A stretch of 33,248 nucleotides of DNA from a virus. The DNA is taken from the IMG/VR virus record IMGVR_UViG_3300017779_000064, one strand, 5' to 3'. Position numbers and translations under genes: made by a program. A model generated the notes under the pieces. That model made no database searches. It had not been told where the DNA came from and was given only the letters and a program-made list of their open reading frames with translations. Positions 1 through 33,248 of this stretch are shown here, one piece after another. The number at the start of each line of letters is the position of its first letter. Within the stretch, counting starts at the first letter, position 1.

Positions 1-123
1 CCCATGTTCAGCACTGCCGCTGCTATCGATACCTGCCGGTCATCGTACTGCCAGCGTATCCCAGTGGCCTCTTGGAATACTACACCATAAGCTGCACAGA
101 TGGCTCGACACGCACGTTCAGGC
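1..123. repeat. Terminal direct repeat: identical to 33126..33248, marking circular closure or assembly overlap
   Basis: Base-by-base comparison: cccatgttcagcactgccgc...cgcacgttcaggc occurs at both ends of the window (123 nt). Confidence 0.95.
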
Positions 124-827
124 TGATGACTGCCTTGCGCGCGCGTGGGCATGTGTGACTTGCTTTTCTTTCTTTCTTCAACAAAACCATTTATACTATT
201 CTTATCTTCTAGTTCTATATTGTTGCTACTAACAACCTCCGGGTTGTTTTTTCGTACAACCTGCAGGTTGTTTTTTCGTACATAGCCCTCATCACTATTA
301 CAACCTGCAGGTTGTTGACTATCGTACTTATCCACAGGCTGTTTGCGCCCTTTTGTCAGTTGTCCTTTAGCTCCTCGGTTGGCTACTGCCATTGTATCTT
401 GCGCCTCTCTTGTGAGTTCTTCCTCGGTCTTTGGTGTGGTGTTCAGCACCTCTTGCAGTGTCATTCTGGGGTCATAGATTACCCTCCAGACTGCGCCTCT
501 TTTGCCCCATGCTCTTCTGTTATCTTCTTTGCGTATCTTCTGGATGTAGCCGTACTCGACTAGCTTCTTCATGTGTTTATGTACTGCTTGCTGAGAGATG
601 CCTATGGCTTCAGCTACGGTCAGTTGGTTCATAAAGAACACTCCGGTGTGTGCTTTGGCGTAGGAGCAGACGAAGGCGAGTACACCGAATGTTGAGGCGT
701 ACTTGTGCAAGCGTGTATCCACTGTTGCTCTGGGCGGTATGAGACAGAATGGACCTGGTGCTTGGTATTCACCGTGGCCATCTGGCGCGTCCCGTATTGG
801 GTCTGGACTGAGGGCTGACTTACGCAT
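1..827 (-). CDS. Replication-initiator-like winged-helix DNA-binding protein, 5' portion (total 337 aa; continues into 32939..33125 across the junction)
   Basis: Manual minus-strand translation. ATG at 827..825 overlaps the methylase stop (ATGCGTAA). Reads MRKSALSPDP...TFGVLAFVCSYAKAHTGVFFMNQLTVAEAIGISQQAVHKHMKKLVEYGYIQKIRK (MarR/DnaD-like wHTH pattern) and stays open to base 1. It is in phase with the ...AAVLNMGYTEDTF... ORF at the other end. Absent from the ORF track only because the window cuts it. Iterons and an AT-rich tract lie inside it. Confidence 0.6.
   Translation of the reverse strand, partial: MRKSALSPDPIRDAPDGHGEYQAPGPFCLIPPRATVDTRLHKYASTFGVLAFVCSYAKAHTGVFFMNQLTVAEAIGISQQAVHKHMKKLVEYGYIQKIRKEDNRRAWGKRGAVWRVIYDPRMTLQEVLNTTPKTEEELTREAQDTMAVANRGAKGQLTKGRKQPVDKYDSQQPAGCNSDEGYVRKNNLQVVRKNNPEVVSSNNIELEDKNSINGFVEERKKSKSHMPTRAQGSHQPERACRAICAAYGVVFQEATGIRWQYDDRQVSIAAAVLNM
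161..232. promoter_or_regulatory. AT-rich tract (about 74% A+T by my count) flanking the iterons; candidate DNA-unwinding element of a phage origin
   Basis: tgcttttctttctttcttcaacaaaaccatttatactattcttatcttctagttctatattgttgctactaa has 19 G/C in 72 nt, against roughly 50% G+C elsewhere. It lies directly downstream (in gene direction) of the iterons, as in lambda ori. Confidence 0.5.
233..314. repeat. Iteron cluster: 24-bp tandem direct repeat (233..256, 257..280) plus a third copy of the 14-bp palindrome (301..314)
   Basis: caacctccgggttgttttttcgta / caacctgcaggttgttttttcgta / ...caacctgcaggttg. CAACCTGCAGGTTG is a perfect palindrome. All copies are inside the initiator coding sequence. Confidence 0.85.
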
Positions 828-1851
828 CGATGCTGGCCTTGATTGCTTCACCAATCTTCTGTGCGATTTGGGGCACGATTGCGTTGCCTAGTCCTTTAAG
901 TCTGTCGGCTCGTCCTTTAACGCCTTTGACTGTTCTGGGGGTGTCTCTAGGCTCGTCCAGCCAGCGGGGTATCCCATCAGCCATTCCACCCAATCCGCTG
1001 AGAGTTGACCGCTGTGGTGGTTCTCCCTGACTGCCTCGTCCAGATTGCATTTGTATGTCGGGCTGTTCATAAACCTGTTCTTGGCCGCGCCTTTGTAGTT
1101 CGCGTACGCTGGTGTCGGCCACATCTTGTCTTTCATCGCCTTTCCTTTTCGGAAGGCCATCCCGTCGAACTCTTCTTTCGTTGCCGCCTTCTTGCTCAAC
1201 ATCTCCAGACTGCCTTTGTTGGTGAACCCCCGCGTGTCTGGTGTCGGCCATAGTTTGTCCGGGTTGAACACCGCCGCTGTCAGATTGTTCTGATGGTTCT
1301 CGCGCCATTTCTCGGTTGCTTTGTTGCTGTCCTGCACTGTCGGTGTCGGAAACATTTTTGGCAATAATCCAGAGCCTGTTTCTTCTGTGTGGCGCATCGA
1401 CGGCGCAAGCTGGAACAATAAACGGCCTTGTGGCGTACCCTTGACCTTCCAAGTCAAGTAGCACTTGGTCGAGGCCCATTGAGACATGACCATAAACGTT
1501 TTCGAAACAGCACCAAGCGGGTCGTTTTTGTGCAATAATTTGCAACAAGTACGGCCAGATGTGGCGGTCATCTTCATGTCCGAGGCGCTTACCGGAGAGG
1601 GAGAACGGCTGACAGGGATAACCGGCTGTGAGGATGGTTCGCTTGGGGTCAGTTCTGGGAATAAGTCCATCTGGGTCATTGGCTAACTCTTTCACATCTT
1701 CAGCGATTGGCACATCAGGCCAATGCTTGGCTAATACTTTGCGCGACCACGGTTCTATGTCGCAGAAGAAGACAGGCTTGCTTAGACCGGCCCACTGAAA
1801 GCCGAGGGCGAACCCGCCTATGCCGGAACAAAGGTCAACGTGGCTCAACAT
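820..1851 (-). CDS. DNA (cytosine-5) methyltransferase (343-aa ORF); central third is compositionally aberrant
   Basis: Motif I DLCSGIGGF, motif IV GYPCQPFS, motif VI FENV, motif VIII APHRRNRLWIIA, motif X RLKGLGNAIVPQIA. Residues about 168-300 are Q/R/G/E/D-rich with no recognisable TRD or motif IX. Confidence 0.85.
   Translation of the reverse strand: MLSHVDLCSGIGGFALGFQWAGLSKPVFFCDIEPWSRKVLAKHWPDVPIAEDVKELANDPDGLIPRTDPKRTILTAGYPCQPFSLSGKRLGHEDDRHIWPYLLQIIAQKRPAWCCFENVYGHVSMGLDQVLLDLEGQGYATRPFIVPACAVDAPHRRNRLWIIAKNVSDTDSAGQQQSNREMAREPSEQSDSGGVQPGQTMADTRHAGVHQQRQSGDVEQEGGNERRVRRDGLPKRKGDERQDVADTSVRELQRRGQEQVYEQPDIQMQSGRGSQGEPPQRSTLSGLGGMADGIPRWLDEPRDTPRTVKGVKGRADRLKGLGNAIVPQIAQKIGEAIKASIDA
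888..1679 (-). CDS. 263-codon ORF fully embedded in the +1 frame of the methylase gene. It carries the WPTP-repeat/TRD-like and motif-IX-like sequence. Either an overlapping gene or the true central reading frame of the methylase
   Basis: ORF track. FPTPT (1338..1352), LWPTPD (1239..1250), MWPTPA (1110..1121). Two of the PTP motifs are followed by NLxxAV (NLTAAV, NLDEAV). WVEWLMGYPAGWT lies at 954..992. It is far longer than any other same-strand alternative-frame ORF in the window (next longest 114 aa). Confidence 0.55.
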   Translation of the reverse strand: MTQMDLFPELTPSEPSSQPVIPVSRSPSPVSASDMKMTATSGRTCCKLLHKNDPLGAVSKTFMVMSQWASTKCYLTWKVKGTPQGRLLFQLAPSMRHTEETGSGLLPKMFPTPTVQDSNKATEKWRENHQNNLTAAVFNPDKLWPTPDTRGFTNKGSLEMLSKKAATKEEFDGMAFRKGKAMKDKMWPTPAYANYKGAAKNRFMNSPTYKCNLDEAVRENHHSGQLSADWVEWLMGYPAGWTSLETPPEQSKALKDEPTDLKD

Positions 1852-2051
1852 TCCTCGTCATCCTCATCGTCTGTCAGGCGCTCACCACTTCCCAAGCAGT
1901 CTGTACAGGTCTCGACACGCTCCTCTACGTATCCGCTATCAACGTCAAAAGACTGACGGTGATACAGTTCTATGAGAATGGTGCCGGTGCCCCCACATTC
2001 TTGGCATATCCGCATGGCTTCGTTGGTGGCGTTGCTCATAGCTTGACCCAT
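1845..2051 (-). CDS. Small zinc-ribbon protein with two DnaJ-type CxxCxGxG motifs
   Basis: CQECGGTG and CTDCLGSG in 68 aa, with an acidic C-terminus. Overlaps both neighbours by a few nt (operon packing). Confidence 0.6.
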   Translation of the reverse strand: MGQAMSNATNEAMRICQECGGTGTILIELYHRQSFDVDSGYVEERVETCTDCLGSGERLTDDEDDEEC

Positions 2052-2533
2052 GCCCCGCCGACCGCTTTTCTGGCCACTGTGATGGGCATCAGGATTGCCT
2101 TGGCACCTGTTTCTTTATCACCGACCGGAACGTGCCGACCTCCCCAGCTTGTGGCGTGTGTGTCGCAGAGTGCTTGGATGGCGCTAGTCTTCATCAGCCA
2201 CACCTCATCGCCAACGCCGTGTATCCATAGTTCAGGGTTTGGCCCTGCGGGGTGAATGCCTGACGGCTTGCCTTGGCTTTGTGTTTCCAGTGCCAGGTTG
2301 CCGGATCCGCTGGCGGCGAAGTCCATTTTGCATTCAGCCTTAATGCGGTGGGCACCATAGAGCGGGACATCTAGAACGACCGTCAGGTCATAGTCATGGT
2401 CTTTGCGCTTCCATGCTTCATGTCCGGCTTTCTTCAACAGCTTGATGACTTTGCGTTCGAACTCTTCGCCCAGTTTGCGCTGATGATTGAACCGTTCCAT
2501 AGGTGACATTTCGTAATTGTACGTTGGTGCCAT
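2036..2533 (-). CDS. PD-(D/E)XK-like nuclease-fold protein (165 aa from the internal ATG)
   Basis: D-x-D...AECK arrangement (DYDLTVVL...HRIKAECKMD). ATG at 2533 is preceded by AAGAGGG and sits 2 nt after the upstream gene's stop. The longer 2578 start would overlap that gene. Confidence 0.45.
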   Translation of the reverse strand: MAPTYNYEMSPMERFNHQRKLGEEFERKVIKLLKKAGHEAWKRKDHDYDLTVVLDVPLYGAHRIKAECKMDFAASGSGNLALETQSQGKPSGIHPAGPNPELWIHGVGDEVWLMKTSAIQALCDTHATSWGGRHVPVGDKETGAKAILMPITVARKAVGGAWVKL

Positions 2534-32938: not shown

Positions 32939-33248
32939 CTACCATCTCGCAGCACCCGTGACCTTGCCTAGAATGGCGTTGATGTCAGGCCCTGGTGTCT
33001 TGTGTCCTGCCTTGTTCTCAGCTTTGCGGGTGAACCATGCAAGCGAGACCGGTGGCTTCTTGTCCTGACCTATGAACCATGCGGCTGTCTTCGTAGCATC
33101 CTCAATGAACGTGTCCTCAGTGTACCCCATGTTCAGCACTGCCGCTGCTATCGATACCTGCCGGTCATCGTACTGCCAGCGTATCCCAGTGGCCTCTTGG
33201 AATACTACACCATAAGCTGCACAGATGGCTCGACACGCACGTTCAGGC
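32939..33248 (-). CDS. 3' portion of the junction-spanning replication-initiator-like gene (stop at 32939..32941)
   Basis: ORF track 32939..33139 (MLNMGYTEDTFIEDATK...GAARW). Its upstream sequence is open to the window end and identical to 1..123, where the frame continues to the ATG at 827. Confidence 0.6.
   Translation of the reverse strand, partial: PERACRAICAAYGVVFQEATGIRWQYDDRQVSIAAAVLNMGYTEDTFIEDATKTAAWFIGQDKKPPVSLAWFTRKAENKAGHKTPGPDINAILGKVTGAARW
33126..33248. repeat. Second copy of the 123-bp terminal direct repeat (same as 1..123)
   Basis: Same 123-nt string as the window start. The reading frame of ORF 32939..33139 continues in phase into 1..827. Confidence 0.95.

What the first reader, a model, noticed from the sequence alone, without database searches (positions are those of the whole stretch)
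820..1851. Cytosine-methylase locus is open in two overlapping frames, with the conserved motifs split between them
Seen in sequence:
- The 343-aa ORF (820..1851) has C5-MTase motifs I, IV, VI and VIII up to about nt 1357, and motif X (RLKGLGNAIVPQIA) at its end.
- Its residues about 168-300 are Q/R/G/E/D-rich with no TRD or motif IX.
- A 263-codon ORF (888..1679) in the +1 frame covers that stretch. It encodes FPTPT, WPTPD and WPTPA, two of them followed by NLxxAV, then WVEWLMGYPAGWT.
- From established family knowledge, that last string is the ERLMGFPxxW-type motif IX, which normally precedes GNAVVP.
- The repeated VSDT/MADT/VADT strings of the long ORF are simply the off-frame reading of FPTP/WPTP.
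- The two points where the frames would have to be joined coincide with homopolymers: A5 on the coding strand (1355..1359, GCC AAA AAT G / CCA AAA ATG) and C5 (937..941, ACA CCC CCA).
- The embedded ORF is open for about 107 codons upstream of the first junction, has its own ATG, and is 2.3 times longer than any other same-strand alternative-frame ORF in this window (114 aa).

Inference, three explanations:
1. A genuine overprinted gene pair.
2. One methylase made by +1 then -1 recoding, or by phase-variable homopolymers.
3. Two compensating indels, from sequencing or mutation.

Having both frames open over such lengths is unlikely by chance and argues for selection on both.
Basis: partly seen in the sequence, partly recalled or inferred. 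Interest (0 to 1): 0.8.

Follow-up and report, generated by a model that had tools for sequence, protein, structure and literature searches.

The report
Two-subunit phage cytosine methylase, nested genes
One stretch of phage DNA is read in two frames to make the catalytic half and, most likely, the DNA-recognition half of a cytosine methyltransferase as two proteins; this layout had one described precedent but turns out to be shared by a very large phage gene family.

Summary

- **The two ORFs.** Frame A (1851..820, 343 aa, "alpha") carries C5-methyltransferase motifs I-VIII and X. These are joined by about 150 residues that are unconserved and predicted disordered. Frame B (1679..888, 263 aa, "beta", +1 relative to A) carries a conserved N-terminal domain, three WPTP modules and the motif IX-like LxxxWVEWLMGYPxGWT.
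- **Conservation of the layout.** In 141 of 149 related loci from many bacterial phyla and viral contigs, the frames run A, then A+1, then A, with frame A open from motif I to motif X.
- **Independent start for beta.** Beta has a conserved ATG (MTQxDLF) with AAGGAG seven bases upstream in relatives (AAAGAG here) and an in-frame stop two codons upstream.
- **Selection on both frames.** Synonymous sites of alpha are constrained where beta overlaps (identical-codon fraction 0.58 against 0.36). Beta avoids T-ending codons where alpha reads through (11.5% against 28.7%).
- **Not an artefact.** The gene is base-identical in three independent SRA assemblies.
- **Homopolymers.** The A5 and C5 runs are not conserved in relatives.

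Best explanation: an overprinted gene pair encoding a heterodimeric orphan phage C5-methyltransferase. The closest precedents are M.EcoHK31I (nested) and M.AquI (split). Assembly and activity of the two proteins are inferred, not shown.

The parts
820..1851 (-). alpha ORF (343 aa): the C5-methyltransferase large (catalytic) domain with motifs I-VIII, a long disordered linker, and the motif X helix
   Evidence: PF00145 116.2 bits. Residues 3-164 align to M.HhaI residues 13-170. AlphaFold2 gives pLDDT about 90 for residues 1-170, about 30 for 171-323, and above 90 for 324-343. Foldseek matches catalytic domains of M.HhaI, M.HaeIII, DNMT1 and DNMT2 over about 170-200 columns.
888..1679 (-). beta ORF (263 aa), +1 frame, wholly nested in alpha: N-terminal domain, three WPTP modules and a motif IX-like segment; proposed target-recognition (small-domain) subunit
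   Evidence: 1997 homologues, none with a Pfam domain. Matches phrog_1008 'DNA methyltransferase' at 1.8e-31. A profile search finds 24,359 cluster representatives at E<=1e-10.
1677..1692 (-). beta translation start: AAAGAG (1692..1687), a 7-nt spacer, then ATG (1679..1677); an in-frame TAG at 1685..1683 blocks any earlier start
   Evidence: Read. In relatives the same position reads AAGGAG, then 7 nt, then ATG ACC CAG (MTQ), with the same upstream stop.
1357..1676 (-). dual-coding segment 1: alpha motifs IV (GYPCQPFS, 1623..1600), VI (ENV, 1503..1495) and VIII (HRRNR, 1389..1375) in frame A; beta N-terminal domain (residues 2-107) in frame B
   Evidence: Identical-codon fraction among same-residue pairs is 0.58 here against 0.36-0.37 in alpha-only parts. 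It is higher for all 15 amino acids tested, Mann-Whitney p = 4e-13. Frame B has 0 stops in 16,729 codons across 141 loci, against 940 in the third frame.
1005..1356 (-). segment 2: beta WPTP modules (FPTP 1352..1341, WPTP 1250..1239, WPTP 1121..1110) in frame B; alpha disordered linker in frame A, kept free of stops
   Evidence: Alpha amino-acid identity is only about 0.2 here. Alpha pLDDT is about 30. T-ending beta codons are 6.5% in the window and 11.5% in the family, against 28.7% in alpha-only codons. The module consensus is [KR][ML]W[PA]TPxAxD.
951..1004 (-). beta motif IX-like segment LSADWVEWLMGYPAGWTS (residues 226-243)
   Evidence: hhalign of the beta profile against M.HhaI gives a single hit, beta 224-243 to HhaI 272-291, which is motif IX (E 0.041). 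An A-B-A chimera gains 4-12 bits and aligns full length to single-chain methyltransferase models. Alpha synonymous sites are constrained here, fraction 0.67-0.71.
862..894 (-). alpha motif X, GLGNAIVPQIA (residues 320-330); the beta stop codon TAG (890..888) lies inside its Leu-Gly codons
   Evidence: Beta ends ...DLKD* over alpha RLKGLGN in most relatives.
1355..1359 (-). A5 run at the alpha-to-beta content junction: incidental
   Evidence: Not conserved in relatives. Identical in four independent assemblies.
937..941 (-). C5 run at the beta-to-alpha content junction: incidental
   Evidence: Not conserved in relatives. Identical in four independent assemblies.

Best explanation
The locus is a genuine overprinted (nested, same-strand, +1) gene pair that encodes the two subunits of one orphan phage DNA cytosine-5 methyltransferase.

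**Alpha** is translated in frame A from 1851 to 820. It is the large catalytic and AdoMet-binding domain (motifs I-VIII). Its C-terminal motif X helix is tethered through a linker of about 150 residues. That linker is merely the off-frame reading of beta and only has to stay free of stop codons.

**Beta** is initiated independently at its own Shine-Dalgarno sequence and ATG (1679) inside alpha. It supplies what alpha lacks:
- the target-recognition region, built from WPTPxAxD modules;
- motif IX;
- an N-terminal domain of about 105 residues, encoded over alpha motifs IV-VIII, which probably docks beta onto alpha.

Alpha and beta would then assemble non-covalently into the usual two-lobed enzyme. 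That enzyme would methylate phage DNA and so protect it from host restriction.

**Shown here:** both ORFs, their conservation, the independent start signals, and selection on both frames.

**Inferred:** physical assembly, the requirement for both chains, activity, and the biological role.

**Likely origin (inference):** an ancestral single-chain gene acquired a +1 frame change after motif VIII and a -1 frame change before motif X. The recognition ORF then extended upstream into alpha.
For: 1. **Same layout in distant phages.** Phage C72C1 and Paenibacillus phage Likha have the same nested arrangement. In Likha both CDSs are annotated as methyltransferases.
2. **Frame pattern in related loci.** Of 149 evaluable related loci, 141 have the motif I-VIII frame f, beta in f+1 and motif X back in f, with frame A open throughout. 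The loci come from IMG/VR and from genomes of Proteobacteria, Bacillota, Bacteroidota, Verrucomicrobiota, Planctomycetota and CPR.
3. **Stop avoidance.** The third frame has 1260 stops in 19,754 codons, against essentially none in frame A. Codon permutation gives a median P of no stop of 0.005 per locus. Beta T-ending codons are 11.5%, against 28.7% in alpha-only codons.
4. **Independent initiation.** Beta starts at a conserved MTQxDLF, with AAGGAG 7 nt upstream and a stop two codons upstream.
5. **Synonymous-site constraint in alpha exactly where beta overlaps**.
6. **Split relatives.** In some relatives alpha stops after motif VIII and motif X is fused in frame to beta (L090, L136, L147, P0014, P0016). 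In those, two polypeptides are unavoidable.
7. **No single-chain close relative.** Among the 120 best hits to an A-B-A chimera, none has motifs I-VIII, the recognition region, IX and X in one frame.
8. **Structure prediction.** The alpha model is a complete large domain plus the motif X helix, joined by a disordered linker. Beta alone folds poorly (pLDDT 60.6), as might be expected for a subunit that needs a partner.
9. **Motif IX of M.HhaI aligns only to beta residues 224-243**.
10. **Experimental precedent.** M.EcoHK31I beta is encoded inside alpha in another frame and both chains are needed for activity. M.AquI is split after motif VIII (PMC2836561; PMC3404938).
11. **Not an artefact.** The gene is identical in independent assemblies.
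Against: - There is no direct evidence here that either protein is made, that they bind each other, or that the enzyme is active.
- The statistical support that beta holds motif IX is weak: hhalign E 0.041, and a chimera gains only 4-12 bits.
- Beta matches no solved structure by sequence, and its model is too poor for fold comparison. Its assignment as the small domain therefore rests on position, motif pattern and analogy.
- The Shine-Dalgarno sequence in this window is AAAGAG, weaker than the AAGGAG of relatives.
- The related loci are phylogenetically related, so the 141 cases are not fully independent.
- Low-level frameshifting that also makes a fused chain cannot be excluded.
Confidence: 0.82

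Rival explanations
1. One single-chain methyltransferase is made by programmed +1 frameshifting near the A5 run and -1 frameshifting near the C5 run. A variant of this idea is that the homopolymers act as phase-variable switches.
For: The motif order I-VIII, recognition region, IX, X is restored by an A-B-A reading, and the two junctions coincide with A5 and C5. The chimera aligns full length to single-chain methyltransferase profiles.
Against: - The homopolymers are not conserved. In 45-48-nt junction windows of 100 relatives the longest run is mostly 3.
- There is no X XXY YYZ heptamer (read) and no Rfam frameshift element.
- Frameshifting would not require frame B to be open about 107 codons upstream, a conserved ATG with a Shine-Dalgarno sequence, or constrained alpha synonymous sites there. 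Nor would it require frame A to stay open through the beta-specific stretch.
- Runs of 5 nt are short for phase variation, and they are identical in four independent assemblies.
Confidence: 0.05
2. Two compensating indels, arising from sequencing or assembly error or from recent mutation, have produced a damaged or pseudogenised conventional methylase.
For: Changing A5 to A4 and C5 to C6 would fuse everything into one conventional ORF. One database protein, P0121, is a one-off fusion of the alpha N-terminus to the beta C-terminus.
Against: - The gene has 0 nucleotide differences in three independent SRA-run assemblies. A JGI metagenome copy has only 3 differences, none changing alpha or falling in beta.
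- The same frame pattern is present in 141 of 149 distant loci.
- There is selection on both frames.
Confidence: 0.01
3. Beta is a real, separately made protein but is not the recognition subunit. It might, for example, be a regulator or inhibitor of alpha, or have an unrelated function, while alpha acts alone or with a host factor.
For: Beta has no Pfam, NCBIfam, PADLOC or PDB sequence match. Its structural model is poor. The motif IX assignment is statistically weak.
Against: - Alpha has no folded or conserved segment between motifs VIII and X that could recognise DNA.
- Beta ends with LNPxWVEWLMGYPxGWT, exactly where motif IX belongs, immediately before motif X.
- In some relatives motif X is covalently part of beta.
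- The M.EcoHK31I precedent shows that such a beta chain is required for methylation.
Confidence: 0.1

Closest known systems
M.EcoHK31I (E. coli HK31; recognises YGGCCR), the alpha/beta C5-methyltransferase of Lee, Kam and Shaw 1995, as described in PMC2836561 and PMC3404938
   Same: Beta is encoded entirely inside the alpha gene in a different reading frame. [quoted passage not shown] The two chains must associate for activity, and the beta N-terminus is needed for that association.
   Different: - The literature places the predicted target-recognition domain of M.EcoHK31I in alpha. Here the alpha stretch between motifs VIII and X is unconserved and predicted disordered, and the conserved modules lie in beta.
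- Here beta also has an N-terminal domain of about 105 residues overprinted on alpha motifs IV-VIII.
- M.EcoHK31I belongs to a restriction-modification system. This gene is an orphan in a phage replication module: no adjacent product hits a nuclease family, although most neighbours have no family hit at all.
- Sequence homology to M.EcoHK31I could not be tested, because its sequence and the original paper were not available.
M.AquI (Agmenellum quadruplicatum; recognises CYCGRG), a two-subunit C5-methyltransferase
   Same: The enzyme is naturally split after motif VIII into two polypeptides. Relatives of this locus have that partition, with overlapping ORFs: in Brevibacillus L090 alpha is 174 aa and stops after motif VIII, and beta is 309 aa and carries the recognition region, IX and X.
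   Different: In the window motif X stays on alpha and beta is fully nested. The overlap here covers all 263 beta codons. Homology to M.AquI was not tested.
Engineered split and circularly permuted C5-methyltransferases (M.HhaI, M.SssI and M.MpeI fragments)
   Same: Large-domain and small-domain fragments complement each other in vivo. Engineers found it best to link the C-terminal motif X helix covalently to the large domain and to split between motif VIII and the recognition domain (PMC3404938; PMC5944983). That is the partition this natural pair shows.
   Different: Those are artificial constructs encoded by separate genes. This is a natural pair read from one stretch of DNA in two frames.
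Multispecific phage C5-methyltransferases (SPR, phi3T, rho11s, H2); recalled from my own knowledge, not checked here
   Same: They are phage-borne orphan C5-methyltransferases with several tandem recognition modules of about 40 residues. Beta has 1-8 WPTPxAxD modules spaced about 39 residues apart.
   Different: Those enzymes are single chains. Whether the beta modules are independent recognition domains is untested.

Membership tests
DNA cytosine-5 methyltransferase (Pfam PF00145) | Motifs I (FxGxG), IV (PCQ), VI (ENV), VIII (QxRxR-like) and X (GNAV) in a Rossmann-type large domain | tested here: met
   Alpha has DLCSGIGG, GYPCQPFS, ENV, HRRNR and GLGNAIVP. PF00145 scores 116.2 bits. Residues 3-164 align to M.HhaI. 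Foldseek E is 1e-10 to 1e-12 against C5-methyltransferase catalytic domains.
DNA cytosine-5 methyltransferase (Pfam PF00145) | Target-recognition domain and motif IX lie between motifs VIII and X on the same chain | tested here: not met
   Alpha residues 171-323 are unconserved and disordered. Motif IX aligns only to frame B.
Nested two-subunit C5-methyltransferase (M.EcoHK31I type) | The beta ORF lies wholly inside the alpha ORF, on the same strand, in another frame | tested here: met
   Beta 888..1679 lies inside alpha 820..1851, in the +1 frame.
Nested two-subunit C5-methyltransferase (M.EcoHK31I type) | Alpha holds motifs I-VIII and X; beta holds motif IX | tested here: met
   The motif IX assignment is statistically weak (E 0.041) but correct in position and pattern.
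Nested two-subunit C5-methyltransferase (M.EcoHK31I type) | Beta is translated independently | tested here: inconclusive
   A conserved ATG, a Shine-Dalgarno sequence and an upstream stop are present, and both frames are under selection. No expression data are available.
Nested two-subunit C5-methyltransferase (M.EcoHK31I type) | Both polypeptides are required for methylation and they associate | not testable with these tools
   This needs co-expression and an activity assay.
Nested two-subunit C5-methyltransferase (M.EcoHK31I type) | Sequence homology to M.EcoHK31I alpha and beta | not tested
The original paper is not held.
Split C5-methyltransferase (M.AquI type) | Alpha ends after motif VIII, and beta carries motifs IX and X | tested here: not met
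   In the window motif X is in the alpha frame. The feature is met in relatives L090, L136 and L147.
Programmed ribosomal frameshifting | A conserved slippery site at the shift point, and the alternative frame needed only downstream of it | tested here: not met
   No conserved homopolymer or heptamer. No Rfam hit. Frame B is open and selected 107 codons upstream of the junction.
Phase-variable methyltransferase | A long simple-sequence tract whose length varies between isolates | tested here: not met
   The tracts are 5 nt long and identical in four independent assemblies. They are absent from relatives.
Type II restriction-modification system | A cognate restriction endonuclease gene is adjacent | tested here: inconclusive
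   On record for the neighbours are DUF1064, weak HTH and resolvase hits and no nuclease family, but most adjacent products have no family hit at all. Relatives also sit in phage replication modules. A restriction gene without a known family cannot be excluded from these data.

The most novel reading that the evidence does not exclude
The nested alpha/beta layout, until now treated as a one-off curiosity (M.EcoHK31I), may be the standard architecture of a very large, largely unannotated family of phage and prophage C5-methyltransferases.

- **Family size.** The beta profile finds 24,359 clusters at 50% identity with E<=1e-10.
- **Origin by reciprocal overprinting.** The beta N-terminal domain would have arisen de novo over alpha motifs IV-VIII. 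The alpha linker would have arisen over the beta recognition region.
- **Beta as an exchangeable specificity subunit.** Beta has 1-8 WPTPxAxD modules of about 39 residues. It could act like HsdS next to a constant catalytic subunit, possibly giving multispecific methylation. Close relatives keep about 93% identical alpha ends but swap the middle of the gene.
Probability: 0.4. Interest if true: 0.85.

Novelty: new variant of a known kind. Interest (0 to 1): 0.68.

Why it matters
- **A clear overprinting case.** This is one of the longest and best-supported same-strand nested gene pairs in a prokaryotic virus: 263 codons, with both frames demonstrably under selection, and it recurs across phyla.
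- **An annotation gap.** RefSeq/PGAP calls only alpha (as "dcm") in the plasmid examples examined and leaves beta unannotated. Such methylases would then look as if they lacked a recognition domain, which could mislead specificity predictions, REBASE-style inference and pseudogene calls.
- **An engineering scaffold.** A natural enzyme divided into a catalytic-domain chain (with motif X attached) and a recognition-domain chain is the design that engineers of targeted methyltransferases arrived at. It offers many ready-made scaffolds.
- **A testable idea.** If beta is a modular, swappable specificity subunit, the pair gives phages a compact way to change or multiply their methylation targets.

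Tried and rejected
- **DNA searches.** Megablast of the locus against phage records found nothing. Only distant blastn and tblastn found relatives. A distant blastn search of E. coli genomes found nothing.
- **Beta against protein and structure libraries.** Pfam, NCBIfam, PADLOC and a PDB profile search gave no hits.
- **Beta structure.** AlphaFold2 of beta alone gave pLDDT 60.6, and its Foldseek matches are meaningless (E above 1). No structural claim is made for beta.
- **Pfam on the repaired chimera.** I expected a large PF00145 gain for the A-B-A chimera. The gain was only 4 bits, so the motif IX claim is kept at the level of pattern plus position.
- **In-frame fusions.** I looked for alpha-beta fusions among the longest beta-family members. 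None of the 10 tested has a Pfam domain. One one-off partial fusion, P0121, was seen.
- **Literature.** The original M.EcoHK31I and M.AquI papers are not held, so homology to them is untested. Searches found no description of a widespread nested phage methyltransferase family. The Paenibacillus larvae phage paper lists two cytosine methyltransferase genes without comment.
- **RNA elements.** An Rfam scan of 600..2100 found nothing.
Full report
**Observation.** On the minus strand the window holds a 343-aa ORF (1851..820, frame A, "alpha") and a 263-aa ORF (1679..888, "beta") in the +1 frame, wholly nested in alpha.
- Alpha matches Pfam PF00145 (116.2 bits). Beta matches no Pfam family.
- Alpha residues 3-164 align to M.HhaI residues 13-170, which cover motifs I-VIII.
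- Alpha ends with GLGNAIVPQIA, which is motif X.
- Beta contains FPTP, WPTP and WPTP at residues 110, 144 and 187, and LSADWVEWLMGYPAGWT at residues 226-242.
- Beta is the longest same-strand nested alternative-frame ORF in the window. The next longest is 124 aa, so the ratio is 2.1 rather than 2.3.

**Not an artefact.** The exact alpha protein is encoded on at least seven public contigs.
- In three independent SRA-run assemblies the 1032-nt gene has 0 differences from the window.
- In a JGI marine metagenome it has 3 differences, at gene positions 6, 21 and 48. These lie upstream of beta and leave the alpha protein unchanged.
- Beta is identical in all four copies.

**The same two-frame layout is a family trait.**
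- *First relatives.* Distant blastn found Phage C72C1 and about 50 Paenibacillus larvae phages. In Likha both overlapping CDSs are annotated "DNA cytosine methyltransferase". ORF listings show the same nested pair in both phages.
- *Family size.* Beta has 1997 homologues in the word-indexed search, none with a Pfam domain. It matches phrog_1008. A profile search of 1.84 billion cluster representatives returns 40,779 proteins at E<=1e-3 and 24,359 at E<=1e-10.
- *Frame analysis.* I fetched 160 related loci from IMG/VR and from genomes of many phyla. I located the four parts by tblastn: alpha motifs I-VIII, the beta N-terminal part, the beta C-terminal part, and the alpha motif X tail. Of 149 evaluable loci, 141 have beta in frame A+1, motif X back in frame A, and frame A open from motif I through motif X.
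- *Split relatives.* Three loci (L090, L136, L147) and several database proteins (P0014, P0016, P0023, P0038) have motif X fused in frame to beta. In these alpha stops right after motif VIII.
- *Minimal versions.* On Bacillus and Lacticaseibacillus plasmids alpha is 246-260 aa and beta 161-182 aa. RefSeq annotates only alpha, as "dcm".
- *E. coli.* A P2-like E. coli phage has the layout too.

**Selection acts on both frames.**
1. *Stop avoidance.* Over the beta-specific stretch of the 141 loci (19,754 codons) the third frame has 1260 stops and frame A essentially none. Shuffling beta codons predicts about 5 frame-A stops per locus, with a median P of no stop of 0.005.
2. *How it is achieved.* Every frame-A stop must begin with the third base of a beta codon. 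T-ending beta codons are 11.5% there (6.5% in the window), against 28.7% in alpha-only codons of the same genes and 27% in the window's structural genes.
3. *Upstream overlap.* Frame B has 0 stops in 16,729 codons, against 940 in the third frame.
4. *Synonymous sites.* Among pairs of alpha sequences with the same residue, the fraction using the identical codon is 0.36-0.37 in the alpha-only parts. It is 0.58 where the beta N-terminal domain overlaps, with a peak of 0.75, and about 0.7 under beta motif IX. The excess holds for all 15 amino acids tested. By column, Mann-Whitney p = 4e-13.

**Beta has its own start.** In most close relatives beta begins MTQxDLF at an ATG preceded by AAGGAG with a 7-nt spacer, and by an in-frame stop two codons upstream. 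The window has AAAGAG (1692..1687), the same spacer and the same TAG. This part of alpha is a variable loop in C5-methyltransferases, so the conservation belongs to beta.

**Recoding and phase variation are not supported.**
- In junction windows of 100 non-redundant relatives the longest homopolymer is usually 3.
- There is no X XXY YYZ heptamer in the window (read), and no Rfam element.
- Frameshifting would explain none of three facts: the 107 open and selected beta codons upstream of the junction, the beta start signals, and the stop-free alpha frame across the beta-specific stretch.

**What each chain is.**
- *Alpha model.* AlphaFold2 of alpha with 93 sequences gives pLDDT about 90 for residues 1-170, about 30 with no secondary structure for 171-323, and above 90 for the terminal helix 324-343. 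Foldseek matches only the catalytic domains of M.HhaI, M.HaeIII, DNMT1, DNMT2 and MET1, over about 170-200 columns.
- *Alpha linker.* It is G/S/R/E/Q-rich and only about 20% identical between relatives.
- *Conclusion for alpha.* Alpha is the large domain with the motif X helix on a disordered tether, and it has nothing that could recognise DNA sequence.
- *Beta organisation.* Beta has a conserved N-terminal domain (consensus SG...W.ST.C.LTWK..TP.GRLLFQL) and 1-8 modules of consensus [KR][ML]W[PA]TPxAxD, with mode 3 and median spacing 39 residues. It ends LNPxWVEWLMGYPxGWT.
- *Motif IX.* hhalign of the beta profile against M.HhaI gives one hit, beta 224-243 to HhaI 272-291, which is motif IX (E 0.041). 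An A-B-A chimera aligns full length to single-chain methyltransferase profiles and gains 4-12 bits over alpha alone. This support is weak in score but exact in position. In most relatives beta ends ...GWTDLKD* over the alpha codons for RLKGLGN.
- *Limits for beta.* Beta alone folds poorly (pLDDT 60.6), so no fold claim is made for it.

**No close single-chain form.** A search with the A-B-A chimera returned 6782 proteins. The 120 best hits all carry PF00145. The seven full-length hits whose sequences I read are alpha-type with frame-A linkers, and the coverages of the rest (about 48-62%, or about 100% at 50-60% identity) fit the same type. The exception is P0121, a single-contig fusion of the alpha N-terminus to the beta C-terminus that lacks motif X. 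None of the ten longest beta-family proteins has a Pfam domain.

**Mechanism proposed.** Two polypeptides come from one stretch of DNA. Alpha is the catalytic lobe with motif X. Beta is the recognition lobe with motif IX plus a docking domain. They would assemble into a normal two-lobed C5-methyltransferase.
- *Genomic context.* The gene sits in the replication and early module. It is translationally coupled to a 68-aa upstream ORF. A 337-aa HTH protein gene follows it, and no adjacent product hits a nuclease family.
- *Role.* It is most likely an orphan methylase that protects phage DNA from host restriction. This role is inferred from context and established knowledge, not tested here.
- *Origin.* The likely origin is two ancient compensating frame changes in a single-chain ancestor, followed by upstream extension of the recognition ORF. 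Comparing Likha (nested) with Brevibacillus L090 (split) shows that one frame change between motifs IX and X, plus loss or gain of alpha read-through, converts one layout into the other.

**Comparison with what is known.**
[quoted passage not shown] Alpha carries motifs I-VIII, X and the predicted recognition domain, beta carries motif IX, and association is required (PMC2836561; PMC3404938).
- *M.AquI.* It is split into motifs I-VIII and motifs IX-X.
- *How the field sees them.* These two are cited as the exceptions among otherwise monomeric C5-methyltransferases.
- *Engineering parallel.* Engineers found that tethering the C-terminal helix to the large domain and splitting between motif VIII and the recognition domain gives the best complementing fragments (PMC5944983). 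That is the natural partition seen here.
- *Differences from the M.EcoHK31I description.* The recognition modules are on beta, not alpha. Beta has an overprinted N-terminal domain over alpha motifs IV-VIII. The enzyme is a phage orphan.
- *What could not be checked.* Homology to M.EcoHK31I was not testable. I found no paper describing the nested layout as a widespread phage family, but the library searched is incomplete.

**Verdict.**
- The kind of system is known from one nested and one split precedent.
- This locus is a variant of that kind, with a different domain partition.
- The breadth of the family may be the more notable result.

Noticed in passing
window 1-123 and 33126-33248: There is an exact 123-nt terminal direct repeat. 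The window is therefore probably a complete, circularly closed phage genome of about 33,125 bp. The 337-aa HTH gene downstream of the methylase starts at 827 on the minus strand and runs across the window ends.
   Followed up: yes
L169:802-1650 (GCA_027943315.1, BOPT01002549.1): A close relative keeps about 93% identical alpha N- and C-terminal parts but has a different middle, with different beta recognition modules. This suggests cassette-like exchange of the specificity region.
   Followed up: partly
L163:1230-1970 and L164:1305-2087: On Bacillus thuringiensis HD-771 plasmid p05 and L. paracasei plasmid pAM56, RefSeq annotates only alpha as 'dcm' (246 and 260 aa). The nested beta ORFs (161 and 182 aa) carry the conserved N-terminal domain, one LLPTPTAS module and motif IX, and they are unannotated.
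   Followed up: yes
L090:2248-3388 (Brevibacillus sp.): This is the split, M.AquI-like version of the same family. Alpha (174 aa) stops after motif VIII. Beta (309 aa) overlaps it by about 104 codons and carries four WPTP modules, motif IX and motif X.
   Followed up: yes
L170:1221-2231 (Escherichia phage ESSI2_ev129): The 'dcm' of this P2-like phage has GEQS where ENV (motif VI) is expected, and it holds a nested beta-like ORF with three GWPTPT modules. It may be a divergent or differently functioning member of the family.
   Followed up: no
window 888-1679 and beta homologues P0001-P0377: Beta proteins carry 1-8 (mode 3) [KR][ML]W[PA]TPxAxD modules with a median spacing of 39 residues. Protein length correlates with module number (r = 0.62). 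This is reminiscent of the tandem recognition modules of multispecific phage methylases.
   Followed up: partly
window 1845-2051 (minus strand): A 68-aa Cys-rich ORF (CQECGGTG...CTDCLGSG, resembling a zinc ribbon) ends in ATGTTGA, which overlaps the alpha start codon. This suggests translational coupling. The same small ORF precedes the gene in relatives.
   Followed up: no
P0121 (ENA contig, 351 aa): This is a single database protein that fuses alpha motifs I-VIII, part of the frame-A linker and the beta C-terminal modules with motif IX in one frame, and it lacks motif X. It is probably a frameshift mutant or an assembly error in that contig.
   Followed up: no
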